Below are positions 1,076-18,685 of a stretch of 60,450 nucleotides of DNA, piece after piece. A model generated the notes under the pieces. It was not told where the DNA came from. It saw only the letters and a program-made list of their open reading frames with translations, and searched no databases. The position numbers and the translations under genes are program-made. Each line of letters starts with the position of its first letter. Within the stretch, counting starts at the first letter, position 1. Source of the stretch: a virus (Duplodnaviria > Caudoviricetes). Where the stretch lies: IMG/VR virus record IMGVR_UViG_3300027740_000026, positions 1 to 60,450 of that record; one strand, written 5' to 3'.

Positions 1076-1122
1076 ATTTAACAACCGCTACACCCGACAA
1101 GCGGGTGAGCTTTTTGTTATAT
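1076..1122 (+). other. attC-like site A1 (minimal 47-bp family)
   Basis: ATTTAAC-aacc-GCT[A]CACCCG-acaag-CGGGTGAGC-ttttt-GTTATAT; near-identical copies at 7909 and 59435. Confidence 0.8.
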
Positions 1123-1233
1123 TACTCAACCAATTCAACGGCTGCGGCCATTATCATCATGACCATCATGCCATCATTTTTGTTGTCGTTGCCCATTCTC
1201 AAAGCTGCCATCAAAACAGACTCTCCTTTGGCC

Positions 1234-1257
1234 TGCCGCTTACTTCAATCGTTATGC
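1234..1257 (+). other. Truncated attC (right half only)
   Basis: CCGCTTACT-tcaatc-GTTATGC; GTTATGCCC is the exact complement of GGGCATAAC at site A2. Confidence 0.6.
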
Positions 1258-1479
1258 CCATACCCGCTTGAACTCCGGGTTAGCCAAATAAACCTTTTCA
1301 GAGTTGGAGTAACGGATATTGTCGGGCGCTATTTTCATGTAATCCTTCAGGTCTTTCGTGGCTTGGGGGACAGACAGCCCGAAATAATCAACCACTGCAC
1401 TTCGGTTGATACTCCCATATTGATGCAGTAAGAAATCAATAAAGCGGAGGCGTTGTTCAACTGCATACTTTAAGGGCAT
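1252..1479 (-). CDS. Stand-alone winged-HTH resembling the N-terminus of CapW/BrxR-type WYL regulators (cassette cargo)
   Basis: QRLRFIDFLL..YGSINRS...YFGLSVPQATKDLKDY...APDNIRY....KVY...PEFK; 75 aa, no WYL domain. Confidence 0.75.
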   Translation of the reverse strand: MPLKYAVEQRLRFIDFLLHQYGSINRSAVVDYFGLSVPQATKDLKDYMKIAPDNIRYSNSEKVYLANPEFKRVWA

Positions 1480-1562
1480 AACCAGTCATCCAAGCCGACC
1501 AGGTTGAAGCGCCGTTGCCCAGCCGTGGTCTTTCGGCTGGCGGCTTAATTAAAACGTTGGCC
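1476..1562 (+). other. attC site A2
   Basis: GCATAAC-cagtc-ATC[C]AAGCCG...CGGCTTAAT-taaaac-GTTGGCC; resembles aadA-type attC. Confidence 0.9.
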
Positions 1563-1566
1563 AGAA

Positions 1567-1755
1567 TCAAATAGGTGGCTCAGTGGATATAGGAACATTA
1601 TGGTTCTGCCCATATTCCACGACAGCCGTTTTAATTTCACCCGCAGACAACCCCGTCAAATACAACCAATCAATAACCAACTCGAAGTGGTGATCCTCTG
1701 TGGAATTTCCGGGGATCATGTCGCTACTAACTCCAGGGGGTAGATTGTCGGACAT
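1567..1755 (-). CDS. Hypothetical protein (cassette cargo)
   Basis: MSDNLPPGV..IPGN ORF between GTTGGCC and GGCCAAC core sites. Confidence 0.65.
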   Translation of the reverse strand: MSDNLPPGVSSDMIPGNSTEDHHFELVIDWLYLTGLSAGEIKTAVVEYGQNHNVPISTEPPI

Positions 1756-1772
1756 AATCAACACCATTAAAG

Positions 1773-1861
1773 GGCCAACAAATTAATTAAGCAGAAGGCG
1801 AGAAGTCCCGGTGGCCTTCGGGCAAGCTCGTTTGCGCCTCTGCTTATTAAAGCCGTTATCT
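1773..1861 (+). other. attC site A3
   Basis: GGCCAAC...TAAT[T]AAGCAGA...TCTGCTTATTA...GTTATCT; R'' complements R' of A2. Confidence 0.88.
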
Positions 1862-2179
1862 TCCCCGATTGATAAAGTACAACTCATGCCCAAGCTCGTA
1901 TAATTCGTGCTCAAGCGCGACCTGTTTATCGATCAGGGCCATTGTGTTTTTCTGCTTTTCGGCAAGGGCGAACATCCGCTTTTCTTCCTCGCCAAGTGGT
2001 TTGAGTAGCTTGACGATTGTCGCGTGGTCGTCTCCATGCTGCTGCAATATTTGCTGGGCCTCAATTCTGATTTCACATATCCGGACAAGAGGATTCGCAG
2101 AGAGCAAGGCCTTTATTGCCGCCACTTTCTTCTCTACCTGGGCTATTGCTTGCCTTACAATTTTTTCTTTTGTCGTCAT
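1856..2179 (-). CDS. Hypothetical helical protein (cassette cargo)
   Basis: 107-aa ORF whose TAA lies inside R' of A3. Confidence 0.7.
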   Translation of the reverse strand: MTTKEKIVRQAIAQVEKKVAAIKALLSANPLVRICEIRIEAQQILQQHGDDHATIVKLLKPLGEEEKRMFALAEKQKNTMALIDKQVALEHELYELGHELYFINRGR

Positions 2180-2193
2180 GGCCTAGTCCTGGA

Positions 2194-2284
2194 AGATAAC
2201 AAGCGGGTCAACTCGACCGCGTGAAGATTCCGATTTTGAATCTGGTAATTCAGTGGCGCGGTCGAGTTACCCTAGTCGTTATTT
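2194..2284 (+). other. attC site A4
   Basis: AGATAAC-aagc-GGGT[C]AACTCGACCGCG...CGCGGTCGAGTTACCC-tagtc-GTTATTT; R'' complements R' of A3. Confidence 0.92.
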
Positions 2285-2300
2285 TGAGAAATAGCGTCCA

Positions 2301-2465
2301 CTATTTCCGAGAATATTTTTCACACTTTTCCGTTATCGTCCTTGACTACAGAAGGCCAGCCAACCGCAATGACGTTGAGACAATAACTGCTGCTTTTTTC
2401 AATATGCAGCCGGGTTTTCCTTTTTGAGATCCCAGCCAAACGCATTTTTTACATGGATGATCCAT
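2301..2465 (-). pseudogene. Small Cys-rich ORF interrupted by a 48-bp insert
   Basis: Removing the insert gives MDHPCKKCVWLGSQKGKPGCILKKAAVITEKCEKYSRK; the insert adds an in-frame TAG. Confidence 0.5.
2334..2385 (+). repeat. 52-bp dispersed repeat (second copy 47182-47233)
   Basis: 51/52 identical (C at 2349 vs T at 47197). Confidence 0.93.
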
Positions 2466-2471
2466 ATCAAT

Positions 2472-2825
2472 TCACGACACGATTGTTTGATTTATGCGGT
2501 CTAAGAATCTGACTCGATCTGCTCGAACCATTTCTATTGTTCCATCATCGAACTCCACAACTGCAACGGTGTAATTACCCGTTCCAGATTCGAGTTCTTC
2601 GTAGTCGTTACCCCATCCGTGGAAATCTGCCTCCCTTGTTTCTTTTAACTCTACTTTTTTTGGGTATACTCCAACCCACTCCGTGACCATCACCCGGCGT
2701 AAGTTCTTCTTTAAATTATTGGTTTCAGCAATTTCGTCGATACACTCTTGCGCCGCATCTCTATCGATTGCACTCGCAAAACTGGCCTTGCTTACATATT
2801 GTCGCAGCCTCTTAATAGCGTCCAT
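2472..2825 (-). CDS. Hypothetical phage protein
   Basis: FHGWG.DYEE...G.GNYTVAVVEFDDGTIE..RVRFLD motif seen in phage proteins; AAGGAG RBS. Confidence 0.7.
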   Translation of the reverse strand: MDAIKRLRQYVSKASFASAIDRDAAQECIDEIAETNNLKKNLRRVMVTEWVGVYPKKVELKETREADFHGWGNDYEELESGTGNYTVAVVEFDDGTIEMVRADRVRFLDRINQTIVS

Positions 2826-2981
2826 CGGTCTCCTTTTCTACACACTCCGGGCATACCCAAAGGATTTGACCATGCTCTTTGTCAAATCTTTGCACCCACC
2901 CGTCAGCAAATGCGTTCTTCGTTTCAATGACGTGTTTTGCATTTTGGTCGCAAACACGTTCAAATTTATTTGCAACGTCAC

Positions 2982-3221
2982 TCATTTGATATTCCTGATA
3001 GCGACGAAAATAGTTTCGGCAATTTCTTTGACTTGAGAATCTGACAACAATGGAAGAATGTCGTTATCAGACCTGACGTCAATTATTTCCAACCTGATTC
3101 CGTCGTCTGCATTTACAGATGCCGGAATTTTTTCTCTCCTGCCTATGTAATCCACGTCAATGAGAACACCCTGTAATTCTATTTTCATGATTCTCCTTAG
3201 CCAGCCAGTGCCTGAAGCCAC
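2982..3221 (-). CDS. Hypothetical protein
   Basis: ORF in leftward operon; true start probably MKIELQ after AAGGAG. Confidence 0.55.
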   Translation of the reverse strand: MASGTGWLRRIMKIELQGVLIDVDYIGRREKIPASVNADDGIRLEIIDVRSDNDILPLLSDSQVKEIAETIFVAIRNIK

Positions 3222-3377
3222 ATGATGACAGCTGCGTAAAACATTGCTGCCAGAAATAGACCAGAAAAAACCTCTTTTATCATTTCAACACCCTGTCCAG
3301 GAGTTCCAAAACCTCCCGAAATTCGTTGAAACTTTGGATGGCCCTATCTCTTGCTGAAACAATGGCCAATTCACGGG

Positions 3378-3695: not shown

Positions 3696-3696
3696 G

Positions 3697-4323: not shown

Positions 4324-5053
4324 CTCCTTTTTTCATACGGGAGATAATGCCTTCAATCGCTGTCCGGGCTTTTTTATATTGTGTGGCCGGCAAATTCTCA
4401 AACGAATCCACTTTCAGGTATTCTCCGAGGAATTTACCGAGCCACTTCTCGTCTTTGTTGAGGTTGTTGGCGGCAACCAACTCTTCAAGTTCAAAAACCT
4501 GCTCTTCCGTGATGTACTGCTCTCCCGCTCCGTGGCCATCGTCATCCATGTCCTTCGATGAAATACCCAACAGAGCAAATCCTGTATATCGTTTCAGGTA
4601 CTCTACTGAACTTCCAACAGCCTGGATTTTGTTTTTTCCCCCTGAATCATCAGGGGAGGCAGCCAGCGATGTGGTGATGCTGTGTCCCATGGAGTGGCTG
4701 AGAATCGCCGTCACAGTGATATCTCCGTTGTCGCCCTGCTTTGTGTCCCATGTAAGAGACAGGTCACAACTACCCAAAACAGGGTTAATTTCTCCCAAGG
4801 CTGCGCCCAGAGTCGCGTGGTTGTATTGTGTCGCGCCTTTCTGCGTGGCGTATTTGACTGTTTTTTCTTTGTAGATAGTAAGCGGATGCCGCTTAAATTC
4901 GGCCAGCGCAAGATGAAAAGCTTTTCTCGCCTCGTTAGCTTCGTATTCTTTTTGTATAGCTAGCAACTCTGCCAACTTCTGCGTATCAATATTGCCGGTA
5001 ATTGCCGCCTGTACCAATGGCGAGATCCCTTGAGTCGTTTGCAGTTCGTTCAT
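4298..5053 (-). CDS. ERF-family single-strand annealing protein
   Basis: YNHATL, HSMGH, SGGKNKIQAVGSSVEYLKRY, DDDG motifs. Confidence 0.9.
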   Translation of the reverse strand: MNELQTTQGISPLVQAAITGNIDTQKLAELLAIQKEYEANEARKAFHLALAEFKRHPLTIYKEKTVKYATQKGATQYNHATLGAALGEINPVLGSCDLSLTWDTKQGDNGDITVTAILSHSMGHSITTSLAASPDDSGGKNKIQAVGSSVEYLKRYTGFALLGISSKDMDDDGHGAGEQYITEEQVFELEELVAANNLNKDEKWLGKFLGEYLKVDSFENLPATQYKKARTAIEGIISRMKKGGANGADHL

Positions 5054-5069
5054 TTTCCCCCCCTTTTAA

Positions 5070-5297
5070 TTAAAAGTTGTTAATTCCAATGAAAACCCCG
5101 GCCCCACCATCAAACCGGAAATTGTATATCTGCCCGGTTGGGTTGCTGAAAATCTCTATTCCTGGCAGGTCTTTTATTGTTTCCAGGACAAAAGCATTTA
5201 CCGGATATGCGGCTGAACCGAAAAATAAAACAGGGAAAACTGATTCAGCCTCGGGTGACAAAATTTCAGCAATTCTTTTTTCTCCACGTTCTCTCAT
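5070..5297 (-). CDS. Hypothetical protein
   Basis: ORF with AGGAGG RBS in operon. Confidence 0.55.
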   Translation of the reverse strand: MRERGEKRIAEILSPEAESVFPVLFFGSAAYPVNAFVLETIKDLPGIEIFSNPTGQIYNFRFDGGAGVFIGINNF

Positions 5298-7878: not shown

Positions 7879-7908
7879 TATCGTTCCTCCAGTAAGAATT
7901 TTGTCCGC

Positions 7909-7955
7909 TCCTAACTATCGCTGCACCCGACAAGCGGGTGAGCTTTTTGTTATGG
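7909..7955 (+). other. attC-like site A5 (minimal 47-bp family)
   Basis: TCCTAAC-tatc-GCT[G]CACCCG-acaag-CGGGTGAGC-ttttt-GTTATGG. Confidence 0.82.
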
Positions 7956-7956
7956 A

Positions 7957-8634
7957 TCACGAATGGTAGTCCACGGTAACGCACAGCCAATCTGGTTTCG
8001 GGGTTATTTGCGCGGCGTAATCCTCGCGATACGTCGCGGCTTTCTCAATAAATTGATTAACTGCTGTCTTGGCTAACCCATCCCAATTTATCGGCATGTG
8101 GTTAACTCCGTTCCACTGTCCATCGCATAGCATAAACTTGGCCTCAGTGGTAGCCCCGTCATGAGATGGGGCAGCGATAATCACCCTGTGACATTTAAGG
8201 GTCTCAGGGATCTCATCAACCCTGCAAATGTCACAGGCCAGCAGGTCATTCCCGTCATACTGATTCTGAGAGTGGGCAAAGATCGGGCATGGGGTGATCT
8301 CACCGTTTTCAGTTGGGAACAGGTCGTTCCACATTTTGTCAACCATGGGGATCTGGCTGGCTGGTGAAAGCTCTTGTTTGCCACATCGCAGCCCGGAGAC
8401 CTTAACCTCTGCCGCTTTCAGGTCTTTGTAAAATTGTTCTAATTTGCTGGGGTCATATCTGCAAGACTCCTTGCTACCGGCCCATCGCCCTCCAACAACA
8501 AACCAGTCCCAGAAGGCATGGCCGGAAGCGTCTTCATCGTCGCGTTTGTTTTCATCAAAAGGATCAAGAATAGCTTCCAATGTTGCCTGGATGTTGCTTG
8601 ATGGCGGCATAATTACTTCGCAATGGTAGTGCAT
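7957..8634 (-). CDS. Conserved phage protein with WDWFVVGGRW motif (cassette cargo)
   Basis: MHY...WDW..GGRW.G...VDYH pattern; bracketed by GTTATGGA/TCCATAAC. Confidence 0.75.
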   Translation of the reverse strand: MHYHCEVIMPPSSNIQATLEAILDPFDENKRDDEDASGHAFWDWFVVGGRWAGSKESCRYDPSKLEQFYKDLKAAEVKVSGLRCGKQELSPASQIPMVDKMWNDLFPTENGEITPCPIFAHSQNQYDGNDLLACDICRVDEIPETLKCHRVIIAAPSHDGATTEAKFMLCDGQWNGVNHMPINWDGLAKTAVNQFIEKAATYREDYAAQITPKPDWLCVTVDYHS

Positions 8635-8641
8635 AGAATCT

Positions 8642-8734
8642 CCATAACAATCGGTTCAACGCAGATGGCGGGATCTGCTGTTGAGTTTTAAATTTTCTTC
8701 GGTGGCCCGCCACTGGTTAACCGAAGCGTTAGGA
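8642..8734 (+). other. attC site A6
   Basis: CCATAAC-aat-CGGTT[C]AAC[G]CAG...CTGGTTAACCG-aagc-GTTAGGA; two extrahelical bases. Confidence 0.92.
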
Positions 8735-9184
8735 GGAGCAATGCCCCGTTCCGCCTCCACAATGCCCGGCCATGGCCTGAATAAATTTGTCCATCTTGCG
8801 CAACAACCTTGTGTATCTCTCAACAAGATTTATCCCGTCAAGGTGTTCAATCAGAGCGTAGAAGGTGTCTTTCCGATCGTGGCATATCTCCGGCACTGAG
8901 GTCGTCACAAAAACCTTCAGCTCCGTCTTGGCTTTTATCTGCCTCACACAGGCTAATAGTTCGTCAAGGTATAGGCACGGTTCGCCGCCCAAAAACAGCA
9001 CGTCGTCTAGCCCCTTGGCGTTGCTTACAACCGTTTCTACTATCGCCGCAACATCGGGCTTTGTGAGGCCCAGCCCATCGAAGCGACGGTCAATGCAGTG
9101 GGCGCATTTGTTGTCGCACGCACTCGTAAAATGGACATCAAACGAGTTATATATTCCGTCGCAACAGTTACAACTAAGTTTCAT
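8729..9184 (-). CDS. Radical SAM protein, probably truncated (cassette cargo)
   Basis: CDNKCAHC (CxxxCxxC) and FLGGEP; only 151 aa; TAA inside R' of A6. Confidence 0.8.
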   Translation of the reverse strand: MKLSCNCCDGIYNSFDVHFTSACDNKCAHCIDRRFDGLGLTKPDVAAIVETVVSNAKGLDDVLFLGGEPCLYLDELLACVRQIKAKTELKVFVTTSVPEICHDRKDTFYALIEHLDGINLVERYTRLLRKMDKFIQAMAGHCGGGTGHCSS

Positions 9185-9191
9185 AAAAACC

Positions 9192-9278
9192 TCCTAACAA
9201 TAAAATTAACCTGACGGGGTTGATCCGTCCGTTTTTTGCGGGTAGTTCTCGGCCCGCAGGTTATTTAAAGCGTTATGC
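9192..9278 (+). other. attC site A7
   Basis: TCCTAAC...AAAT[T]AACCTG...CAGGTTATTT-aaagc-GTTATGC; CCTCCTAAC complements GTTAGGAGG of A6. Confidence 0.9.
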
Positions 9279-9358
9279 TCTAAACACCACTATCGCCATT
9301 GGCATCCAAAGGCCGTTTAATTGCCCCTTAAAAGTCACTTTAAAATATCTTGCCTCCA

Positions 9359-9569: not shown

Positions 9570-9672
9570 CAATCCTCCGTAATTCTGAGTTGCGCTCGCG
9601 GCGTTTCGGTTATGGGTTTTTCTCTCTGGCCCACAATCTGCATGGCAGAATTACGGAGGATTGTTCTTTTTT
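9570..9672 (+). promoter_or_regulatory. Leader hairpin/attenuator before the replication initiator
   Basis: Perfect 18-bp inverted repeat 9570-9587/9646-9663 followed by a T-run. Confidence 0.7.
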
Positions 9673-9687
9673 CTGTTGAATCAAACA

Positions 9688-9954
9688 ATGGATAAGAAAT
9701 TAAAATCTATCTTTGATAACCACACGTTAGGACCAACAACTAAATTGGTCTATATTTATTTAGTACAAATGGCAAACAAAGACGGTGAGTGCTGGCCAAA
9801 TTACGAGCATATCATGGCTGCGTGTGGAATTACGAGTAAGGCCACTGTATCTAAATCACTTAAAGAGCTGACTTCCGCAGGGGAAATTGTGGTATTCAGA
9901 AAATCAAACGGTTTTAGGCATTCAAACAGGTATGGAATATTGCCGTGTCGATAG
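9688..9954 (+). CDS. Winged-HTH replication initiator-like protein
   Basis: KLVYIYL...ANKDGECWPNYEHI...CGI.SKATVSKSLKEL...G...SNRY; adjacent to iterons. Confidence 0.8.
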   Translation: MDKKLKSIFDNHTLGPTTKLVYIYLVQMANKDGECWPNYEHIMAACGITSKATVSKSLKELTSAGEIVVFRKSNGFRHSNRYGILPCR

Positions 9955-10063
9955 TTCATTTTTTGAACCTTCGATAGTTCATTTTTTGAACTATCGAAGG
10001 TTCATTTTTTGAACCTTCGATAGTTCATTTTTTGTGCGATTGGATAGTTCATTTTTTGAACCG
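9948..10063. repeat. Putative replication origin: five ~23-bp iterons
   Basis: TCGATAGTTCATTTTTTGAACCT-like units at 9948, 9971, 9994, 10017, 10041 with a GTTCA/TGAAC dyad (degenerate in copy 4); followed by AT-rich TATATAAAGACCT repeats. Confidence 0.85.
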
Positions 10064-10132
10064 TATATATAAAGACCTTATATAAAGACCTAAAGACAGG
10101 CTAGCCAAGGAAGAAAATTTTAAGAGGGCCAA

Positions 10133-11680
10133 GTGAAACAATTTCGGATCGAGCATACAATTTTATCATCTGGCCCTGGATTCAATTTGAGGGACTACCA
10201 GAAAAGGGCCGTTGCCGAAATACGTTCTTCTTTGGCTGCTGGATCTCGGCGTGTTGTGATGGTAATGCCTACGGGCTCGGGCAAGAGCGCGACTTTTGCC
10301 GAAATAACCAAGCTGGCCCTGGCGAAAGGCAAGCGTGTTCTGTTCCTGGTTCACAGGAGAAATTTGGTTGATCAGACCCGGCAGGCGTTTGCCTATCATG
10401 GCGTGACAGAGACAGGCATAATCATGTCAGGCTATGAAACTGCACTGAATGAGCCTGTCCAGTTGGCGACCTACCAAACCTACGGGCGGCGGATCAAGTT
10501 GGAAGACGGCGAAACGGCGTTTAATTTCCCAGCCGACCTGATTTTAGTCGATGAAGTCCATAGGGGCGTGTCTCAGGGATACGTGGACATTTTCAGCCAT
10601 TATCCAGAAGCCGTTATTGTCGGATGCACAGCAACTCCGACGAGAGCAGACGGTCGGGGTCTGGGTGAAGTGTTTGACTCATTGGTTGATGTCGTTGACA
10701 CACAATCGCTGACTGACAACGGATATCTCGCCCCATGCCGTTATTTTGCCCCAAGTGTTCCCAATCTTGATCAGATTAAAATAGTCAGGGGTGATTACGA
10801 CGTTAAAGAGTTGGATAAACGGATGAACCAGGCCAAGCTTGTTGGCGATGTGGTGCAAAACTGGTTGCGGCTGGCAGCAGATAGGAAAACTATAGTGTTT
10901 GCCGTGTCTGTCGCCCATTCAAAAGCCCTTGCCGCTGAATTTAACAGACACGGCATATCGGCATATCATCTGTCCGCCAAAAGTACCGACGAGCAACGGG
11001 ACTACGCATTCAGAGAGATGGAGCGTGGAAATATCCAGGTGATTTGCAACTGCGCTTTGTATCAGGAGGGCATGGATGTGCCTGACATATCCTGTGTTGT
11101 GATGGCAAGGCCGACAAAAAGCCTGGGGCTCTGGCGCCAATGTGGCGGACGAGGTTTGAGACCAGCACCAGGAAAGGACCTGATGTTATTGGATCATGGC
11201 GGTTGCATCGAGGAAAACGGGTTACTGACTGACCCTGTGGAATGGAGTTTGGACGGGAAAAAGAAGGCATGGAGAAAAGCAAAAAAAAGGAAACCGGCGG
11301 AGAAAAAAGACCTCATTTGTTCGGCCTGCTCCCTGATTTTCTCCGGGTCCGCGAAATGCCCTGACTGCGGCAATGAAGCAAAAAGTTTTGGGAAAAAAGT
11401 TGAGGTAATTGACGCGGATCTGTCCGAAATTGGCGGCAAAAAAAAGGCCACAATGGAAGAAAAGCTCAAATTTTACGGGATGTTGCGTCATTATGCGAAA
11501 TTGAAGGGGTATAAAGACGGATGGTGTTATCACAAATACAAAGAGCGGTTCGGGGTGGCTCCGAAAAACGGTATCAGCCCGCCATGTATCCAACCTGATC
11601 ATGCGTTTTACTCGTGGATGAAACATTTGACGATAAAATACCTGAAAAGTAAGGAGCGTCATGCCGAGAATCGAATTTGA
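10133..11680 (+). CDS. SF2 (DEAD-like) DNA helicase with C-terminal Zn ribbon
   Basis: LRDYQ, PTGSGKS, DEVH, TATP, EGMDVP, QCGGRGLR, CSAC..CPDC. Confidence 0.95.
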   Translation: MKQFRIEHTILSSGPGFNLRDYQKRAVAEIRSSLAAGSRRVVMVMPTGSGKSATFAEITKLALAKGKRVLFLVHRRNLVDQTRQAFAYHGVTETGIIMSGYETALNEPVQLATYQTYGRRIKLEDGETAFNFPADLILVDEVHRGVSQGYVDIFSHYPEAVIVGCTATPTRADGRGLGEVFDSLVDVVDTQSLTDNGYLAPCRYFAPSVPNLDQIKIVRGDYDVKELDKRMNQAKLVGDVVQNWLRLAADRKTIVFAVSVAHSKALAAEFNRHGISAYHLSAKSTDEQRDYAFREMERGNIQVICNCALYQEGMDVPDISCVVMARPTKSLGLWRQCGGRGLRPAPGKDLMLLDHGGCIEENGLLTDPVEWSLDGKKKAWRKAKKRKPAEKKDLICSACSLIFSGSAKCPDCGNEAKSFGKKVEVIDADLSEIGGKKKATMEEKLKFYGMLRHYAKLKGYKDGWCYHKYKERFGVAPKNGISPPCIQPDHAFYSWMKHLTIKYLKSKERHAENRI

Positions 11681-12590
11681 AAAAATCAAGGACGAGGCTC
11701 GGGGCCGCTGGCGTGGAATTTTCGCGCATCTCGGGATCGAAGTTGGCGACGGCAGACATACAATATGCCCGATATGTCAGAAGGCCTCTAAATTTCGCTG
11801 TGACGATAAAACAGGGGCTGGGGAATGGATCTGTACCTGTGGGGCTGGAGACGGCTTAAAATTGATTATGGAGGCCTTAAACGTCGATTTTGTGACTGCC
11901 GTCGAAATGATCATCCCGATAGTCGGGATAGTCGAGCCCACCGAGCGGGAGGAGAAAAAAACATTTTCGGCGGAACAGGCCCGGAAAATATTTGTGGGCG
12001 CGGTTAGGGCGTCACATCAAAATGCGGCGGGCCAATACCTACGCAATAGAGGCCTGAGGGCGTGTCCGGAAACGCTCTGGTATCACGAAAAAATGTGGAA
12101 CGTCCATTCAAAAACTCATTTGCCGGCAATGGTCGCATGCGTGACAAATAAATCCGGGCAGGTGACAAATCTACACCAGACATTTTTGACGCCGGATGGC
12201 CAAAAAGCCGGGATCGAAAAACCAAAAATCTTGACGATGAATTTTGACAAAACTGACCCAACTGGTCGGGCAATCAGACTGTTCCCCCCGGAACATGAGT
12301 GCGTTGGGATCGCTGAGGGGATTGAGACAGCCCTGGCGTGTTATGAGATGCACGGTATACCAACCTGGGCGGCTGTGTCAGCGTCATGGATGATCGGCTG
12401 GGAGCCCCCGGAAGGGATACCGTTGCGGAAAGTGTATATTTTTGGGGACCGGGACAACAGTTTTACCGGGCAGGCGGCAGCGTATCAATTGGCGCACAAG
12501 CTCAAGGTCCGGCGCAAAATTGATGTTGAGGTCCAACTGCCACCAGAGGGTGATTGGCTGGATGAGCATGTCAAGAGGACTGAAAAATAA
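11661..12590 (+). CDS. Primase (Zn-binding plus Toprim domain)
   Basis: HTICPIC..FRCDD...WICTCGAGDG; IAEGIETAL; IFGDRD; DWLD. Confidence 0.9.
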   Translation: MPRIEFEKIKDEARGRWRGIFAHLGIEVGDGRHTICPICQKASKFRCDDKTGAGEWICTCGAGDGLKLIMEALNVDFVTAVEMIIPIVGIVEPTEREEKKTFSAEQARKIFVGAVRASHQNAAGQYLRNRGLRACPETLWYHEKMWNVHSKTHLPAMVACVTNKSGQVTNLHQTFLTPDGQKAGIEKPKILTMNFDKTDPTGRAIRLFPPEHECVGIAEGIETALACYEMHGIPTWAAVSASWMIGWEPPEGIPLRKVYIFGDRDNSFTGQAAAYQLAHKLKVRRKIDVEVQLPPEGDWLDEHVKRTEK

Positions 12591-12931: not shown

Positions 12932-12960
12932 TTGACATCATATCTAGTCGGGTGTAAGAT
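12932..12960 (+). promoter_or_regulatory. Sigma70-type promoter
   Basis: TTGACA-17-TAAGAT with A-rich upstream element. Confidence 0.75.
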
Positions 12961-14284: not shown

Positions 14285-14365
14285 TCTGAGCCGCCAAGAG
14301 TCAAGTTTGCTCATAAAGAGCACGGCATAAGCCCGAAAGTCAACCTGGATTGATATGAAGCGAGC

Positions 14366-14455
14366 AGACTACGACCAGGGTGAGCTGACCGGGCCACTCA
14401 AACTACAATAAAAAAACAGGCGGTTCCCCGGTTCTGCTCTACCCGCTTGTTATGC
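14366..14455 (-). other. Degenerate attC site B1
   Basis: Minus strand GCATAAC-aagc-GGGT[A]GAGC...GCTCACCC-tggtc-GTAGTCT (R' has lost a T). Confidence 0.7.
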
Positions 14456-14498
14456 GGCGGTTGCCGGTAAAATTATTTTCCAACCCCTTTTATTTTGC

Positions 14499-14527
14499 TT
14501 GCAATTCCGAACAATGTACGGTAAGGT
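14499..14527 (+). promoter_or_regulatory. Cassette promoter with palindromic operator
   Basis: TTGCAA-17-TAAGGT; CCGAACAATGTACGG in the spacer. Confidence 0.7.
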
Positions 14528-14916: not shown

Positions 14917-15120
14917 ATGACCAACAAGGAGTTTCAGGCCCAGCAATCACGGCTGGGCCTCACGAATGAACAGACAGCCGCCATTCTCCGCGTGTCGATC
15001 AGGACTGTGGAGAAATGGCGGCAGGGAGTGCGGGGCGAGATACCAGGGCCGGTGGTCGTGGTTTTTTCCCTGCTTGAGCATTACCGCAGTGCAATTTCAT
15101 GGCTGCGGGGTGACACATAA
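14917..15120 (+). CDS. XRE HTH autoregulator (Aca-like)
   Basis: LGLTNEQTAAILRVSIRTVEKWRQG..IPGPV; paralogue of 15571-15774; TAA inside attC B2. Confidence 0.85.
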   Translation: MTNKEFQAQQSRLGLTNEQTAAILRVSIRTVEKWRQGVRGEIPGPVVVVFSLLEHYRSAISWLRGDT

Positions 15121-15176
15121 CGACCAGCATCACCGGACCGCTGCTTTTGCGGTTCCGCGTGCATGCGAGGTTATGT
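15115..15176 (-). other. attC site B2
   Basis: Minus strand ACATAAC-ctcg-CAT[G]CAC[G]CGG...CCGGTGATG-ctggtc-GTTATGT. Confidence 0.85.
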
Positions 15177-15218
15177 GGCGGGTGCCGATAAATTATTTTT
15201 CAACCCCATTTTATTTGC

Positions 15219-15248
15219 TTGACACAACCGTACATTGTGCGGTATAAA
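15219..15248 (+). promoter_or_regulatory. Cassette promoter with palindromic operator
   Basis: TTGACA-18-TATAAA; CCGTACATTGTGCGG matches the inverted operator at 14507 at 14/15. Confidence 0.75.
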
Positions 15249-15313: not shown

Positions 15314-15574
15314 ATGAGTACAGATAAAAGATTTTTTGACGTAGCGTCCAGCATGGCCGCGAGAAGAATTTCCTCCCTCTTCACGAGGGGGGAGCTGGTC
15401 ACATCCCATGATGGGATGGTGGACCAGTACCGGGGAAACACCCCGGTGAGGTCTTTTGGTGACCTCGGTCAAATTTTCCCGGTATTTCACCGGGAAGCAT
15501 ACCGGGAACTCCGAATACGGGCCGGAGTTCCCGCCAGTAAAGCCACGTGGGAGTGGCACCAGGTGGTAAAATGA
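15314..15574 (+). CDS. Small unknown protein (candidate anti-defence, cassette cargo)
   Basis: AAGGAG RBS; ATGA-coupled to the HTH gene. Confidence 0.7.
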   Translation: MSTDKRFFDVASSMAARRISSLFTRGELVTSHDGMVDQYRGNTPVRSFGDLGQIFPVFHREAYRELRIRAGVPASKATWEWHQVVK

Positions 15575-15774
15575 CACCGGACGAGTTCAAGGCCAAGCAA
15601 GCCGCGCTTGGCCTGACCAACTTCGACGCCGCCACAGTCCTCCGTGTTTCCGTGCGGACGGTGGAGAAATGGCGGCAGGGCACAAGAGCAGTGCCGGGGC
15701 CAGTGGTAGTGATTTTCTTCCTGCTGGCCAAATATAAAGGGGCGATCCGGTACCTACTGGATCGAGACACATAA
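15571..15774 (+). CDS. XRE HTH autoregulator (Aca-like)
   Basis: LGLTNFDAATVLRVSVRTVEKWRQG..VPGPV; TAA inside attC B3. Confidence 0.85.
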   Translation: MTPDEFKAKQAALGLTNFDAATVLRVSVRTVEKWRQGTRAVPGPVVVIFFLLAKYKGAIRYLLDRDT

Positions 15775-15833
15775 CGCTCCGGCTCACTGGTGCCGCGCAG
15801 TTTGCGGCTTCCGCGTGTAGCCGGTTGTTACCC
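15769..15833 (-). other. attC site B3
   Basis: Minus strand GGGTAAC-aa-CCGGCT[A]CAC[G]CGG...CCAGTGAGCCGG-agc-GTTATGT. Confidence 0.9.
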
Positions 15834-15889
15834 TGGCTAGCCACAAAACCAGGGCAACAAAAAATAATTAATTAATATCATTTTTTCTA

Positions 15890-15917
15890 TTGACTCCCTC
15901 TGATATTGTGGTATTAT
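15890..15917 (+). promoter_or_regulatory. Cassette promoter
   Basis: TTGACT-16-TATTAT with extended TG. Confidence 0.65.
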
Positions 15918-15967
15918 TAAATCAAAGGGAGGGCAATAAAGCACTCTCACAAAACAGGGAGCAAAAC

Positions 15968-16159
15968 ATGAAAACTTACAAAGAAATGTACGAAGAAGCT
16001 GCTGCTAAAACAAACTTTGTATACAAAGGGTATACAAAAGGCAACGCCCTTTCTCTGTACGTTGACGAAAAATACGGGGTGAATGCGGCGGCGGACAATG
16101 CCGCTCATGACGCTCTTTGTGAAGTTGTATCAACAATGAGTTTTGACGATGAAGAGTAA
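15968..16159 (+). CDS. Small protein with acidic tail (candidate anti-defence, cassette cargo)
   Basis: GGGAG RBS; 63 aa ending FDDEE. Confidence 0.7.
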   Translation: MKTYKEMYEEAAAKTNFVYKGYTKGNALSLYVDEKYGVNAAADNAAHDALCEVVSTMSFDDEE

Positions 16160-16340
16160 GAAAGGCGGCAATAGACCAGGGGCCGGGAGACCGGCCCTAA
16201 AACCCGACGAAAAGCCGAAAGATATTTCCCTTCGCTTGCCCCGCGATCTGGTCGAAAAGCTGGACGCGATGGAAGGAAGCCGGGCAAAGCTGATAATTGC
16301 AGCCTGTCGAGCCTACTACAAGATTCGCCCGGCAGGGTAA
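16149..16340 (+). CDS. Ribbon-helix-helix DNA-binding protein
   Basis: GGNRPGAGRP + ISLRLPRDLVEKLD...SRAKLI; TAA inside attC B4. Confidence 0.8.
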   Translation: MKSKKGGNRPGAGRPALKPDEKPKDISLRLPRDLVEKLDAMEGSRAKLIIAACRAYYKIRPAG

Positions 16341-16424
16341 CATTCAGCATAATCAGCGGCGGTCTGTGAACCCCGTTAAAATCACCGCGCGTCCCCGCCG
16401 TCTGCGTTGATGCGCTTGTTAGCA
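16335..16424 (-). other. attC site B4
   Basis: Minus strand TGCTAAC-aagc-GCAT[C]AAC[G]CAG...CTGATTATGC-tgaat-GTTACCC; CAGGGTAAC complements GTTACCCTG of B3. Confidence 0.9.
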
Positions 16425-16448
16425 AGCAAAACCACGGAGGGAATATCC

Positions 16449-16973
16449 ATGGAATTTTTATACCTGGCCGCAATTGATGTGGCTAAGAGAGCGCACAAAG
16501 ACCAGCGGCGGAAGTACACCAACGAGCCGTACATTGTCCACTCATTCGCCGTGGCTGGACTGGTTGCCTCAGTGACGGAAGATGATGACATGGTTATTGC
16601 TGCCATCCTGCATGATGTCGTTGAGGATAGTCCGATAGAGCTGAAAACCATCCGTGGCATATTCGGGGTTAGGATAGCCCAAATGGTTGACGACCTTACG
16701 GACGTTTCCAGGCCAACTGATGGTAACAGGGCCAAAAGGAAAGAGCTTGATTTTGAGCACACGGCCAAAGCCAGCCCGGAAGCGAAAACGGTTAAGTTAG
16801 CTGACTTGATTGACAACACCAAGAGCATTTGGGCTTTTGATAAGAACTTTGCACGTAAGTACATGCACGAAAAAAGGCGATTACTCGAAGTGCTGCAAGA
16901 AGGGGACACCTTTCTTTACGCCTTGGCGCACGAGATGACTCAAAAATACTTTGAAACAGGTGAAATATGCTGA
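16449..16973 (+). CDS. HD-domain (p)ppGpp-hydrolase-like protein (small alarmone hydrolase/Mesh1 type)
   Basis: AH..QRRK....PYIVH, AAILHDVVED, VKLADLIDN. Confidence 0.9.
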   Translation: MEFLYLAAIDVAKRAHKDQRRKYTNEPYIVHSFAVAGLVASVTEDDDMVIAAILHDVVEDSPIELKTIRGIFGVRIAQMVDDLTDVSRPTDGNRAKRKELDFEHTAKASPEAKTVKLADLIDNTKSIWAFDKNFARKYMHEKRRLLEVLQEGDTFLYALAHEMTQKYFETGEIC

Positions 16974-17008
16974 TTGTAAAAATGCTGTTCGGTAGTCACC
17001 TGATGTGA
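16967..17008 (+). pseudogene. Orphaned original N-terminus of the nucleotidyltransferase
   Basis: MLIVKMLFGSHLM*; shares TGTTCGGTAGTCACCTG with 17643-17659. Confidence 0.75.
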
Positions 17009-17051
17009 TCCGTTGTTGACTTTTCCACCAGATTCATGTACTCATTTAAGA

Positions 17052-17630
17052 ATGAAACATAATGATAAATGGAGTTGGAACTGGTCGAAAGAACACGTTG
17101 GCATGAAAATAGGACGGCTTACGTTAATAGAGCCTCTACCTGAACGTCCTGAAAATCGTTGGAGATGTATATGCCAGTGTGGGAAAGATATCGTTGCTCG
17201 GTGGTCAGCATTGAAACGCGGAATAACTAAATCCTGCGGTTGTTTAAAGAGCGAAACTACAGTGCAAAAAAACAAGCGCGGATTTAAGGGGAGAGGGGAG
17301 TTGTCGGGGACTTACTTTAGTCAGATTCGGTACCAGGCTAAAAAAAGAAATCTTGAGTTTAGCATTACTGTTGATGATCTGTGGGACTTATTCTTGGCGC
17401 AAAAAGGAAAATGTGCAATTTCCGGCATGGACATTTTCTTAACACCAGGGACTAAGAGAGGTCACCCCACAAGTGCAAGTTTAGATAGGATCAATTCAAC
17501 TAAAGGGTACGCATTAAATAATGTCCAGTGGGTTCATAAGCATATCAATATTATGAAAAACTCTCAATCAATGGAGGAATTTCTTTATATATGCAAAAAG
17601 ATTGCTGCGTTTCAAGCAAAGAAAACATAA
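17052..17630 (+). CDS. Free-standing HNH homing endonuclease
   Basis: WRCICQCG...KSCGC N-terminus; CAISG...SLDRINSTKGY..NVQWVHKHINIMK. Confidence 0.88.
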   Translation: MKHNDKWSWNWSKEHVGMKIGRLTLIEPLPERPENRWRCICQCGKDIVARWSALKRGITKSCGCLKSETTVQKNKRGFKGRGELSGTYFSQIRYQAKKRNLEFSITVDDLWDLFLAQKGKCAISGMDIFLTPGTKRGHPTSASLDRINSTKGYALNNVQWVHKHINIMKNSQSMEEFLYICKKIAAFQAKKT

Positions 17631-18601
17631 TCATGCGTTGTGTGTTCGGTAGTCACCTGTACGGCACATCTACCCCCGCCAGCGACAAAGACTTTAAAGG
17701 GGTGTCCCTGCCAACATGGGAGCAGGTGGCGCTTGGAAGAATACCAAAGCACGCTGAGAATACCTCAACGGGGCAAGCGCACAGCAAGAACACCGCGCAA
17801 GATGTGGACACGGAAATTTTCGGATTGCATGAGTTTGTGAAACTCGCCTGTGAAGGGCAAACCGTGGCGATGGACATGCTACACGCCCCCGCCGATATGC
17901 TTATTTCTGTAACCCCGTTATGGGCCGAAATCCAGAAGCACAAGGCCAAGTTTTACAGCAAAAATATTCACTCGTTTATCGGGTACGCCATGGGCCAAGC
18001 CGCTAAATACGGGGTGAAGGGTAGCAGACTGAATGATGCAAAGGCCGTTTTAAGTTGGCTTGAAAGTCAACCAGAATCCGCGAAATTGGCAGATTGCGAC
18101 CTTGGCACATTCCCGGCGGGGGAACATATTAGGCTGATTGAGTCTGACGACCCGCTGAAACAAAACCAATACGATGTCTGTGGCAAAAAGATACAGCTTA
18201 CCAGTCGGGTGCAATATGCGTATAACATTGTGTCGCATTTTTATAAGAACTACGGCGAAAGAGCAAGGCAAGCAGCCTGTGACGAAGGGGTTGATTGGAA
18301 GGCAATAAGCCACGCATTTAGAGCCGCTTACCAAATGCGAGAACTTTTTGTCTCTGGGACGATAACTTTCCCACGCCCAGAAGCGAAACTGCTGACAGAT
18401 ATAAAAACTGGCAACATGAAATACCGTGATGCGGCCCCAATGCTGGAAGACATTATTGACGAAGTAAAGGGGCTGAAAGATCGGTGTGAGTTCCCTGAAC
18501 AGCCGGATAGGAACTTTTGGGATTCTTTCATTTTGCGCATTGTAGAGGAGGTCATTGTTCCGAATCTTCGCAAGGCTGATAGCGGAATTTCTGCTTGCTA
18601 A
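17591..18601 (+). CDS. Pol-beta superfamily nucleotidyltransferase (phage type)
   Basis: FGSHLYGTSTPASDKDFKGV (GS..DxD); DWKAISHAFR; ITFPRP; start may be 17633; TAA inside attC B5. Confidence 0.88.
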   Translation: MQKDCCVSSKENIIMRCVFGSHLYGTSTPASDKDFKGVSLPTWEQVALGRIPKHAENTSTGQAHSKNTAQDVDTEIFGLHEFVKLACEGQTVAMDMLHAPADMLISVTPLWAEIQKHKAKFYSKNIHSFIGYAMGQAAKYGVKGSRLNDAKAVLSWLESQPESAKLADCDLGTFPAGEHIRLIESDDPLKQNQYDVCGKKIQLTSRVQYAYNIVSHFYKNYGERARQAACDEGVDWKAISHAFRAAYQMRELFVSGTITFPRPEAKLLTDIKTGNMKYRDAAPMLEDIIDEVKGLKDRCEFPEQPDRNFWDSFILRIVEEVIVPNLRKADSGISAC

Positions 18602-18685
18602 CGCCAATGGTAACCAGCGGCGGCCACGGAGCTTGACGACGAGCAACGCTGCTCCCCGCCGTCTGCGTTTACCCGCTTGTTAGTC
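18596..18685 (-). other. attC site B5
   Basis: Minus strand GACTAAC-aagcg-GGT[A]AAC[G]CAG...CTGGTTACC-attggc-GTTAGCA; TGCTTGCTAAC complements GTTAGCAAGCA of B4. Confidence 0.9.

What the first reader, a model, noticed from the sequence alone, without database searches (positions are those of the whole stretch)
1076..18685. Cassette ORFs are antisense to attC, and attC polarity flips across the replication origin
Seen: by extrahelical-base position, the attC top strand is + in the left arm (genes on -) and - in the right arm (genes on +). Stop codons therefore sit in R' read backwards (1252, 1856, 8729, 15120, 15774, 16340, 18601, 57850, 59476, 60095), and R'' can supply the start or RBS (GTTATG at 1479; GTTAGGAGG before 9184). 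This mirrors bacterial cassettes. Established: IntI recombines the folded bottom strand, which folds best on the lagging-strand template; large chromosomal integrons avoid that orientation. Inference: with bidirectional replication from ~10 kb, every bottom strand lies on the lagging template while genes stay co-directional with forks. These would be a phage-adapted inverted cassette class, and promoterless members would be silent from Pc in a host integron.
Basis: partly seen in the sequence, partly recalled or inferred. Interest (0 to 1): 0.85.

Follow-up and report, generated by a model that had tools for sequence, protein, structure and literature searches.

The report
Mirror-image integron cassettes in a phage
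A complete 60-kb phage genome carries at least ten genuine integron recombination hairpins (attC sites) that point the opposite way, relative to the genes beside them, from those in bacteria, suggesting that some phages keep a mirror-image version of the bacterial gene-cassette system.

Summary
The window is a circularly assembled ~60.3-kb phage with no integrase. It has 10 strong and about 6 weak or degenerate attC sites among its small early genes.

- **Strand assignment.** A covariance model built from the phage sites finds 11 of 11 class 1 integron attCs on the cassette coding strand. A model built only from class 1 attCs finds 11 phage sites and gives the same strands.
- **Polarity in the window.** The attC top strand is antisense to the genes in both arms: 10 of 10 cassettes, and 13 of 14 sites with 1 ambiguous. 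It flips where gene direction flips, a point that brackets an iteron origin.
All ten listed stop codons lie in a GTTA; eight of these belong to a detected attC.
- **Wider pattern.** The same attC family is antisense at 35 of 41 sites in viral records, but sense at 17 of 21 sites in bacterial MAGs and in a true integron. Exceptions exist: one phage with sense cassettes, including an EcoRI restriction-modification pair, and the published phage TJE1.
- **Untested part.** The lagging-strand argument has no support here. GC skew is driven by coding, not replication.

Verdict: a real, new variant of phage CALINs. Why the polarity is reversed remains unresolved.

The parts
9189..9281 (+). attC, top strand '+'. 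The complement of R'' (GTTAGGAGG, 9190-9198) is the ribosome-binding site of ORF 8729..9184.
   Evidence: R2 59.9 bits, E 3e-13; R3 35.0 bits; sequence
8639..8737 (+). attC, top strand '+'. Three single-base bulges on the AAC arm: GTT[C]AAC[G]CAG[A], with 6 bp between the first and last. R' GTTAGGA holds the stop of ORF 8729..9184.
   Evidence: R2 80.5 bits; R3 49.9 bits; fold; 97-99% identical over 88 nt to sites in L029, L056, L052, L040 and L023, whose flanks are unrelated
7906..7958 (+). Short (about 45 nt) attC-like hairpin of a 3-copy family, with one bulge on the AAC arm. Weak call.
   Evidence: Repeat family D4; R2 E 0.55; R3 E 1.7; fold
2191..2287 (+). attC, top strand '+'.
   Evidence: R2 56.6 bits; R3 26.3 bits
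1770..1864 (+). attC, top strand '+', two bulges. R' GTTATCT holds the stop of ORF 1856..2179.
   Evidence: R2 65.6 bits; R3 31.0 bits
1473..1565 (+). attC, top strand '+'. The complement of R'' (GTTATG) supplies the start codon of ORF 1252..1479.
   Evidence: R2 29.2 bits, E 4e-5; R3 32.5 bits; the ORF is 73% identical in protein to one in L022 with the same geometry
1073..1125 (+). Short attC-like hairpin, D4 family.
   Evidence: R2 E 0.002; R3 16.7 bits on '+' against 11.4 on '-'
1251..1257 (+). Orphan R'-like GTTATGC holding the stop of ORF 1252..1479. No hairpin detected beside it.
   Evidence: Sequence; no model match there
60042..60103 (+). Short attC, top strand '+'. R' GTTAGCA holds the stop of ORF 60095..60442.
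   Evidence: R2 E 0.006; R3 32.2 bits on '+' against 11.0 on '-'
59432..59484 (+). Short attC-like hairpin, D4 family. R' GTTAGAT holds the stop of ORF 59476..60018.
   Evidence: D4; R2 E 1.9; R3 E 0.73
58068..58123 (+). Truncated attC-like hairpin. Weak call.
   Evidence: R2 E 0.07; R3 E 9.2; fold
57680..57855 (+). Degenerate composite. An R''-L''-like start (57680-57777) is followed by an orphan L'-R' half-site (57834-57853) identical in 20 of 20 bases, inverted, to that of attC 15112-15179. GTTATAT at 57849 holds the stop of ORF 57850..58053.
   Evidence: R2 E 0.05; repeats I10, I17, I20
14363..14458 (-). attC, top strand '-', with a variant R' (GTC in place of GTT).
   Evidence: R2 66.2 bits, but only 10.3 bits with R3; 94% identical to L032 3760-3840
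15112..15179 (-). attC (60 nt), top strand '-', three bulges. R' holds the stop of ORF 14917..15120.
   Evidence: R2 46.1 bits; R3 16.6 bits
15766..15836 (-). attC (63 nt), top strand '-'. R' holds the stop of ORF 15547..15774.
   Evidence: R2 56.9 bits; R3 28.4 bits. In L013 only its R' and the start of L' remain.
16332..16427 (-). attC, top strand '-'. R' holds the stop of ORF 16143..16340. With the HD-domain ORF that follows it forms a unit that recurs elsewhere.
   Evidence: R2 75.1 bits; R3 34.6 bits. Window 16346-16892 is 80% identical to L032 1464-2009, where the ORF lies between two attCs.
18593..18688 (-). attC, top strand '-'. R' holds the stop of ORF 17591..18601.
   Evidence: R2 75.2 bits; R3 37.0 bits
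9948..10081 (.). Five 23-24-nt iterons, the putative replication origin. They lie between the HTH_36 gene (9661..9954) and the SF2 helicase (10133..11680) and primase (11661..12590).
   Evidence: Repeat family D2; Pfam. Function as an origin is inferred.
57137..57670 (+). The only ORF of the '-' arm that lies on '+'. It is sense to the attC polarity of that arm, so it has the canonical cassette geometry.
   Evidence: Codon score 30.7 for 56921..57670; sequence; no family found

Best explanation
**What it is.** The window is a complete phage with a P22-type portal and no integrase. Its early and accessory genes are organised as integron-type cassettes, that is, clusters of attC sites with no integrase (CALINs), on both sides of its replication module.

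**What the hairpins are.** They are genuine attC sites: R box, unpaired central spacer, L box, and 1-3 extrahelical bases on the AAC arm.

**What differs.** The cassettes are the mirror image of bacterial ones.
- Read along the gene's sense strand, each unit is: attC (bottom-strand sequence), then a ribosome-binding site or promoter, then the ORF, then TAA.
- The predicted IntI crossover (G|TT in R', which reads TAA|C on the sense strand) falls just after the stop codon of the gene upstream.
- The bottom strand, the one IntI recombines, is therefore the coding strand.

**Why polarity flips.** Because this attC-ORF polarity is fixed within each cassette and cassettes are read in the direction of their arm, attC polarity flips wherever gene direction flips. 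In this window that point brackets the iteron origin.

**How it would work (inferred).** Recombination would need a host IntI acting in trans.

**Shown:** site identity, strand, geometry, and the link with viral records.
**Inferred:** that IntI acts on these sites, and why the polarity is reversed.
For: **Controls for the strand call.**
- Model R1, built from 9 window sites, finds the single attC of R100 as its top hit, on the aadA1 strand (36.5 bits; sequence).
- In four other class 1 integron loci, 10 of 10 matches at E<=1 lie on the cassette coding strand, just downstream of annotated cassette genes.
- The converse model R3, from 7 class 1 attCs, gives the same strands in the window.

**The same attC family in true integron context is canonical.** In L048 an IntI (47% identical to IntI1) is divergent from a sense ORF 4759..5175 that is followed by attC 4680-4767. 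L031 is arranged likewise.

**Window polarity.** 10 of 10 cassettes are antisense. 13 of 14 sites are antisense and 1 is ambiguous. Pfam or PHROG hits support the called strand for radical SAM, HD, RlaP, RNA-ligase-like, HTH, Ref and RusA ORFs.

**Survey of the family**:
- Viral records: 4 sense / 35 antisense / 2 ambiguous.
- MAG loci: 17 / 2 / 2.
- By record or locus: 2 sense and 6 antisense viral, against 11 and 2 bacterial; Fisher p=0.018.

**Cassettes behave as modules.**
- The attC-plus-HD-ORF unit recurs in L032 between two attCs.
- The 15840-16314 cassette recurs at 87.6% identity in a 171-kb viral record (L013).
- Near-identical attCs sit in unrelated flanks.
- Contigs from the source sample and from one other study diverge from the window at 16342, 14371, 14451 and 18597, which are attC ends (contigs only).

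**No recombinase in the phage.** Searches for TIGR02249, PF00589 and PF00239 found nothing.
Against: - No recombination was observed, and no host or host IntI is known.
- Two of the three strand-selectivity features described for mobile-integron attCs are absent. Top-strand GC skew is >=0 in 9 of the 10 strong sites (-0.04 to +0.12). The bottom strand is not more stable: mean difference about +0.1 kcal/mol, range -1.0 to +1.9, from unconstrained DNA folds. Nivina 2016 reports a purine-rich bottom strand that is 2.1 kcal/mol more stable.
- Six of the 16 sites are weak or shorter than the known 57-141 nt range.
- The survey is of one attC family, fetched with one pattern. Sites within a record are not independent. 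The bacterial loci come from 4 MAGs, and I picked 10 regions out of their 35 matches, though before looking at any ORFs.
- Coding strand in other records rests on a codon-usage score that miscalled 1 of 11 control sites.
- Sense polarity occurs in phages: G005 (6 '+' and 2 '-' sites, each sense to its local genes) and TJE1 (3 of 3).
Confidence: 0.6

Rival explanations
1. **The first reader's cause.** The inverted polarity is selected because, with genes co-directional with forks leaving the iteron origin in both directions, it puts every bottom strand on the lagging-strand template. There it folds readily, which makes phage cassettes highly recombinogenic.
For: - Bottom strands on the lagging template raise attC folding and excision (Loot 2017, passages). 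Inverting the V. cholerae array raised excision from below 7e-5 to 3e-2 (Richard 2024, passages).
- Iterons, HTH_36, helicase and primase sit exactly at the divergence point.
- All 16 sites lie within about 14 kb of it, with the polarity this idea requires.
Against: - The replication mode is unknown.
- GC skew follows gene strand and codon position 1, and changes sign at 56 kb rather than opposite the origin.
- The flip is equally explained by fixed cassette polarity plus the need for expression.
- Phages G005 and TJE1 have the opposite polarity.
- In relative G004 all 11 sites share one strand on both sides of the helicase gene. No iterons were found in the 13 kb held.
Confidence: 0.25
2. **Stop-codon capture (my proposal).** A stop codon TAA followed by C reads GTTA on the antisense strand, which is a minimal IntI target.
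- In tightly packed phage operons it is the main target that does not disrupt a gene.
- An attC-bearing circle inserted there lands just after the stop, with its top strand antisense to the gene.
- Two such insertions after consecutive genes turn the gene between them into a mobilisable antisense cassette.
- Polarity then follows gene direction with no selection needed.
For: - IntI inserts cassettes at short 5'-GWT-3' genomic sites, with no strand or replication bias (Loot et al. preprint, passages).
- The stop is exactly the TTA of R' at 45 of 105 antisense sites across all loci, and at 8 of 16 in the window.
- The same attC sequence, loop included, sits in many unrelated flanks.
Against: - The mirror coincidence also occurs in sense cassettes, where it is not at the crossover: the stop is the TAA of R'' TAAC at 10 of 46 sites. 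The excess is therefore moderate.
- No 'empty site' pair was found.
- It is not known whether circles made of an attC alone exist.
Confidence: 0.2
3. **Polarity barrier.** Bottom-strand synapsis fixes the orientation in which a cassette inserts. Cassettes swapped between phage arrays and bacterial integrons therefore end up antisense to the local promoter. Mirror polarity would keep bacterial defence cassettes silent in the phage, and phage genes silent at Pc.
For: - The lone cassette of canonical geometry in the window (ORF 57137..57670 with the attC-like 57680-57777) shares the arm's top strand and so opposes the arm's genes.
- Of the six loci with sense cassettes that I looked at by Pfam, five carry restriction-modification or methyltransferase genes: L007 (EcoRI R and M), L039 (HindVP and a C5 methyltransferase), L049, L047, and weakly L038. 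L026 gave no hit.
Against: - In phage G005 the EcoRI pair is sense to the phage's own genes.
- Right-arm cassettes seem to carry their own promoter-like sites, e.g. 12932-12960 and 15890-15917. Such sites are not enriched overall: 11 found against 11.5 expected.
- Selection for a barrier is hard to picture acting at the level of single acquisitions.
Confidence: 0.1
4. **Not IntI substrates.** The hairpins are the phage's own regulatory elements, such as terminators, RNA processing sites or mRNA stabilisers, or a MITE-like repeat that merely resembles or derives from attC. The polarity would reflect a function at the RNA level.
For: - The phage has no integrase.
- The D4 family folds as a 6-bp GC stem followed by a T run on '+'.
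- Terminator-like sites are enriched in 9.1-19.2 kb: 27 found against 12.6 expected.
- Attachment-site copies are near-identical across records.
Against: - A model made only from class 1 attCs finds them at up to 49.9 bits.
- The bulges have the canonical positions, and where three are present the 6-bp spacing.
- The same family occurs beside IntI genes.
- At the RNA level the two polarities give nearly the same hairpin, so an RNA role does not explain a polarity bias.
- Five of six attCs from virulent phages were recombined by IntI1 in Qi 2023 (section read).
Confidence: 0.1

Closest known systems
[quoted passage not shown] 2023, Front Microbiol, PMC9892861 (outline, passages and section 3.4 read; supplements not seen)
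   Same: attC sites with no IntI in integrase-less phages, flanking small ORFs and methyltransferases. Their phage attCs were recombined by IntI1. My model R3 recovers their TJE1 sites and one P12002L site.
   Different: - They report 17 CALINs, each required to have at least two attCs. This genome has 10 strong plus about 6 weak sites, in two arms.
- The text I read says nothing on ORF-versus-attC polarity or on replication.
- TJE1 is sense at 3 of 3 sites. The P12002L site is antisense.
- Their supplementary tables S1 and S2 could hold polarity data that I could not see.
Canonical integron cassettes and attC strand rules: Nivina et al. 2016, PMC5027507 (passages read)
   Same: R''/R' boxes, unpaired central spacer, L box, 2-3 extrahelical bases on the AAC arm of the top strand, 6 bp between the first and last of them, and a crossover in R'.
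   Different: - ORFs lie on the bottom strand, so the attC precedes its ORF in the sense direction.
- No purine-rich or more stable bottom strand.
- That paper states that cassettes facing the promoter had never been observed in mobile or chromosomal integrons.
Orientation of chromosomal integron arrays relative to replication: Loot et al. 2017, PMC5371416, and Richard et al. 2024, PMC13108822 (passages read)
   Same: The same logic applies: the template strand that carries the bottom strand sets folding and excision rates.
   Different: - There, 25 of 30 chromosomal arrays keep bottom strands on the leading template, with sense ORFs.
- Here bottom strand equals coding strand, which would be the lagging template only if genes run with the forks. 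That is untested.
Toxin-antitoxin cassettes of chromosomal integrons
   Same: Cassettes that do not depend on Pc because they carry their own promoter (stated in Richard 2024).
   Different: - That many of them are reverse-oriented is my recollection, not checked here.
- They are a minority within sense arrays, whereas here the whole array is antisense and the left-arm members appear to lack promoters.
attG insertion of cassettes outside integrons (SALINs, CALINs): Loot et al. preprint 10.1101/2022.09.11.507474 (passages read)
   Same: A route by which attC-bearing cassettes can enter a genome that has no attI, at 5'-GWT-3'.
   Different: It was shown in E. coli chromosomes. Neither phage targets nor a link to stop codons is described in the passages I read.
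Promoter-stem-loop (PeSL) mobile regulatory cassettes of T4-type phages (recalled from memory; no paper opened)
   Same: Repeated intergenic stem-loops that bound small early genes, proposed to shuffle them.
   Different: As I recall, those act through homologous recombination and have no R/L boxes or extrahelical bases. Not tested here.

Membership tests
Integron attC recombination site | Inverted core boxes R'' (RYYYAAC) and R' (GTTRRRY) that pair as the R box | tested here: met
   AAC/GTT pair in 9 of 9 seed sites at the two inner columns. Of the 14 window sites scripted, 12 had an R' located by the script; 11 of these begin GTT and one (14363-14458) reads GTC. No R' was located at 57680-57777 or 58068-58123.
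Integron attC recombination site | L box pairing separated from the R box by an unpaired central spacer, kept by compensatory change | tested here: met
   Helix 2: 18 pairs, 13 with changes on both sides, 80.7% of cells paired. Shifted-partner controls gave 30-45%.
Integron attC recombination site | 2-3 extrahelical bases on the AAC arm of the top strand. On the bottom strand the first is usually G and the last T, with 6 bp between them. | tested here: met
   - 8639-8737 reads GTT[C]AAC[G]CAG[A].
- Bulges fall on the 5' arm of the assigned top strand in the folds of the strong sites.
- Some sites show only one bulge (2191-2287 and the D4 family).
Integron attC recombination site | Length 57-141 bp | tested here: inconclusive
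   The ten strong sites are about 60-91 nt. Five weak ones are about 45-54 nt, below the range.
Integron attC recombination site | Recognised by a covariance model of bona fide attC sites, on one strand | tested here: met
   R3, from 7 class 1 attCs, gives 11 matches at E<0.05, up to 49.9 bits. IntegronFinder's own model was not available.
Integron attC recombination site | Bottom strand purine-rich and more stable than the top strand | tested here: not met
   Top-strand GC skew is >=0 in 9 of 10 strong sites. Mean stability difference is about 0. This is a statistical trait of mobile-integron sites, not a strict criterion.
Integron attC recombination site | Recombined by an integron integrase at G|TT of R' | not testable with these tools
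   Indirect only: contigs of other genomes diverge at attC ends, and the family occurs beside IntI genes.
CALIN (cluster of attC sites lacking an integron integrase) | At least two attC sites close together, with no intI nearby | tested here: met
   for the sites. No IntI, tyrosine recombinase or serine recombinase anywhere in the record.
Canonical integron gene cassette | ORF on the attC top strand, with the attC 3' of its ORF | tested here: not met
   0 of 10 window cassettes are sense. Controls gave 4 sense, 0 antisense, 2 ambiguous. One possible exception is ORF 57137..57670.
Complete integron | intI, attI and Pc next to the array | tested here: not met
   No intI. attI and Pc were not searched for.

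The most novel reading that the evidence does not exclude
A widespread group of environmental phages runs a mirror-image cassette system that draws on the same attC pool as bacterial integrons and uses host IntI in trans.
- Phage genes become cassettes when attC elements insert at TAA|C stop codons.
- The recombinogenic bottom strand is then the coding strand. It is the non-template strand in transcription, and the lagging-strand template when genes run with the forks, so early-gene cassettes would turn over fast.
- The reversed polarity also means that cassettes swapped with bacterial arrays arrive silent.

This would be a phage counterpart of the integron, and a visible route by which new cassettes are made.
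Probability: 0.3. Interest if true: 0.85.

Novelty: new variant of a known kind. Interest (0 to 1): 0.72.

Why it matters
- **Scale.** Integron cassettes are regarded as bacterial, read from Pc, with the ORF on the attC top strand. Phage CALINs are known only as small clusters.
- **What is new.** A whole phage genome here has its accessory genes packaged as cassettes of reversed polarity. The same attC family shows that polarity in most viral records, and the canonical one in bacterial genomes.
- **Implications if IntI acts on these sites.**
  - Phages and integrons share a recombination currency.
  - Host SOS-induced IntI could shuffle phage early genes, possibly counter-defence genes.
  - Polarity becomes a readable mark of where a cassette was formed.
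- **Open question it touches.** It gives a concrete handle on how cassettes arise, through the stop-codon capture idea.
- **Replication-strand theory.** It offers a natural test case for that theory of cassette dynamics.

Tried and rejected
- **Rfam**, whole window at gathering thresholds: 0 matches. Rfam holds no attC family.
- **Megablast** of 10-30 kb against the phage collection: no match.
- **Constrained-fold energy scan**: dominated by length and branched folds, so not used.
- **Anchored arm-alignment scan**: real sites scored only marginally above shuffles, so not used as evidence.
- **The search for related loci** with the helicase protein: 18 pattern matches, none confirmed. Relatives were reached through attC pattern scans instead.
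- **Longest-ORF polarity calls**: too noisy, since known antisense window cassettes came out ambiguous. Replaced by codon-usage scores.
- **GC skew as a replication marker:** rejected, because it is driven by coding.
- **Iterons in relative L014:** none found, so the origin argument could not be tested in a second phage.
- **Promoter scan:** not enriched, 11 found against 11.5 expected. Single promoter-like sites are mentioned only as such.
- **Read laying**: contigs only, and two of the three runs may be the source sample. It gave one weak skip joint (15897>16178, shorter side 21 nt) and one 'goes back' joint from a diverged relative. I draw nothing from these beyond the divergence points at attC ends. 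There was no raw-read evidence of excision circles.
- **Run X3** held only a 0.11 share. No habitat is inferred from it.
- **PH101 and MW202573** from Qi et al. were not examined.
- **Literature.** Four searches found no paper on ORF-versus-attC polarity in phages. This covers the held library only. The supplements of Qi et al. were not seen.

Full report
**What the window is.**
- Bases 1-126 repeat at 60304-60429, and the record is a virus record rated complete. It is therefore a circularly assembled genome of about 60.3 kb.
- Pfam finds small and large terminase, a P22-type portal, an SF2 helicase, a primase and an HTH_36 protein.
- Codon-usage scores and family hits place genes on '-' from 56.1 kb through the junction to 9.2 kb, and on '+' from 9.66 to 56.0 kb.
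- Five 23-24-nt iterons (9948-10081) lie between the HTH_36 gene and the helicase, just right of the divergence point.
- No integron integrase, other tyrosine recombinase or serine recombinase was found.

**Are the hairpins attC sites?**
- By eye, several intergenic palindromes have the full attC layout. For example, 8645-8732 has a TAAC...GTTA R box, a short unpaired spacer, an L box, and three single-base bulges on the 5' arm, GTT[C]AAC[G]CAG[A], with 6 bp between the first and last.
- That matches the rule in Nivina 2016. Extrahelical bases sit on the same arm as 5'-AAC-3' in the top strand. On the bottom strand the first is usually G and the last T. A 6-bp stem separates them.
- Nine sites aligned well. 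The 22 proposed pairs are 83% paired against 65% in shuffles, and 13 pairs change on both sides.
- Model R1, and the broader R2 built from 36 sites in 12 sources, find 10 sites in the window at E<1e-4 and six more at E 0.002-1.9. None lies in the late region from 19 to 56 kb.

**Is the strand call right?** This is the crux, because the R boxes are symmetric.
- R1 run on 50 kb of plasmid R100 puts the one known attC (aadA1) first, on the aadA1 strand.
- On four other class 1 integron loci, all 10 matches at E<=1 are on the cassette coding strand, directly after annotated cassette genes.
- Conversely, model R3, built only from 7 class 1 attCs, finds 11 window sites at E<0.05 with the same strands.
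- In metagenome contigs that carry this attC family beside an IntI gene (L048, 47% identical to IntI1; L031), the modelled top strand has the canonical relation to intI. The first cassette ORF of L048 is sense.

**Polarity in the window.**
- All '+'-top sites lie in the '-' gene arm, and all '-'-top sites in the '+' gene arm.
- 10 of 10 cassettes between adjacent sites are antisense by codon score, whereas class 1 controls are 4 sense, 0 antisense and 2 ambiguous.
Eight are in the R' of a detected site, and two (1252, 57850) are orphan R'-like motifs.
- The complement of R'' gives the start codon at 1477-1482 and the ribosome-binding site at 9190-9198.
- On the sense strand each unit reads: attC, then a ribosome-binding site (left arm) or a promoter-like stretch (right arm), then the ORF, then TAA, with the predicted crossover at TAA|C.

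**Beyond the window.** Pattern scans with the conserved L'' arm brought in 8 viral stretches, 4 MAG contigs and 39 metagenome stretches. R1 or R2 found arrays in most of them.

Per-site polarity, taken from flanking ORFs within 400 nt:

| Source | Sense | Antisense | Ambiguous |
|---|---|---|---|
| Viral records | 4 | 35 | 2 |
| Bacterial MAG loci | 17 | 2 | 2 |
| Unclassified metagenome contigs | 15 | 67 | 3 |
| Class 1 integron controls | 10 | 1 | 0 |

- Six of eight viral records are wholly antisense.
- By record or locus, the contrast between viral and bacterial gives p=0.018. Per site it gives p=4e-9, but sites within a record are not independent.
- Of the six loci with sense cassettes that I examined, five carry restriction-modification or methyltransferase genes: an EcoRI pair, HindVP with a C5 methyltransferase, a 1051-aa fusion, an N4/N6 methyltransferase, and weakly L038. 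L026 gave no hit.
- The EcoRI pair sits between two attCs just after the connector genes of a phage, G005, whose 8 sites are all sense to their local genes.
- Of the published phage CALINs, TJE1 is sense at 3 of 3 sites, and the one P12002L site found is antisense between two methyltransferase genes.
- Antisense polarity is therefore the majority state for this attC family in viral records. It is not a law for phages.

**Signs of modular exchange.**
- The attC at 8644-8731 is 97-99% identical, loop included, to sites in five contigs whose flanks are unrelated. The 16346-16421 type matches about 40 loci.
- The attC plus HD-domain ORF recurs at 80% identity in L032 as a single-ORF cassette between two attCs, and in L019 without the attC.
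- The 15840-16314 cassette recurs at 87.6% identity in a 171-kb viral record, where only R' and the start of L' of the upstream attC survive.
- Contigs from the source sample and from one other study share single cassettes or attCs and diverge at 14371, 14451, 16342 and 18597, which are attC ends. These are assemblies, so repeat-induced breaks cannot be excluded.

**Why reversed?**
- At the RNA level the two polarities give almost the same hairpin. The asymmetry that remains is which DNA strand is the recombinogenic one, and where the crossover lies.
GC skew gives no help: it changes sign at both gene-strand switches and comes from codon position 1.
- The flip itself follows from fixed cassette polarity plus the need for expression.
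- I add two alternatives.
  - Stop-codon capture: TAA followed by C is a GTTA target on the antisense strand. The stop is the TTA of R' at 45 of 105 antisense sites. The mirror figure for sense sites is 10 of 46.
  - A polarity barrier to expression after exchange. The lone sense cassette at 57137..57670 fits this, but G005 does not.
- Against strong bottom-strand selectivity, these sites lack the purine-rich, more stable bottom strand of mobile-integron attCs.

**Verdict.** The 'phage-linked inverted class' is supported for this attC family. The replication cause is open. Four literature searches found only Qi et al. 2023 on phage attCs, and the parts I read do not treat polarity. Their supplements were not available.

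Noticed in passing
window 2334-2385 and 47182-47233: A 52-nt repeat, 98% identical and on the same strand. One copy lies in a 185-nt non-coding gap of the '-' arm. The other lies inside the 3965-aa ORF 40469..52366. Transcription of the '-' arm through the first copy would give an RNA antisense to the giant late gene (D6).
   Followed up: no
window 40469-52366: A single ORF of 3965 aa takes up a fifth of the genome. No family search was run on it.
   Followed up: no
window 16407-18601 and 59476-60018: The cassette cargo includes an HD phosphohydrolase, an HNH/endonuclease VII-like protein, an RlaP-type nucleotidyltransferase ('RNA repair pathway') and an RNA-ligase-like protein. This set looks like RNA repair, possibly a counter to host nucleases that cleave tRNA.
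   Followed up: partly
window 57137-57855: A lone '+' ORF (177 aa, hydrophobic N-terminus) sits in the '-' arm. It is followed by a degenerate attC-like stretch, then by an orphan L'-R' half-site identical in 20 of 20 bases to that of attC 15112-15179. This is the only cassette in the window with canonical polarity.
   Followed up: partly
L007 6617-8755 (phage G005): An EcoRI endonuclease and EcoRI methylase pair is bounded by two attCs in sense polarity. It is inserted directly downstream of the phage's head-tail connector genes.
   Followed up: partly
L022 1827-2442: A 48-aa C-terminal remnant of an integron integrase (65% identical to IntI1 residues 283-330) lies next to antisense cassettes. 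One of them is a 73% protein homologue of window ORF 1252..1479, with the same start-in-R'' geometry.
   Followed up: partly
L013 1140-1170: A deleted attC: only R' and the start of L' remain in front of a cassette that is 87.6% identical to window 15840-16314. This shows that hairpins are lost and leave orphan R' motifs like those at window 1251 and 57849.
   Followed up: yes
G008 (MAG labelled uncultured Nitrospira sp.): 22 matches to the attC model at E<=0.001 in a 2.1-Mb MAG, scattered over many contigs, with one cluster of five on C36, all of sense polarity. This is a possible host lineage or cassette reservoir for the family.
   Followed up: partly
window 14917-15120 and 15547-15774; 14470-14501 and 15190-15221: Two paralogous HTH ORFs each end in the same 10-nt stretch, which includes R'. 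Each is followed by an attC and a repeated 32-nt promoter-like stretch (88% identical). This suggests a duplicated cassette.
   Followed up: no
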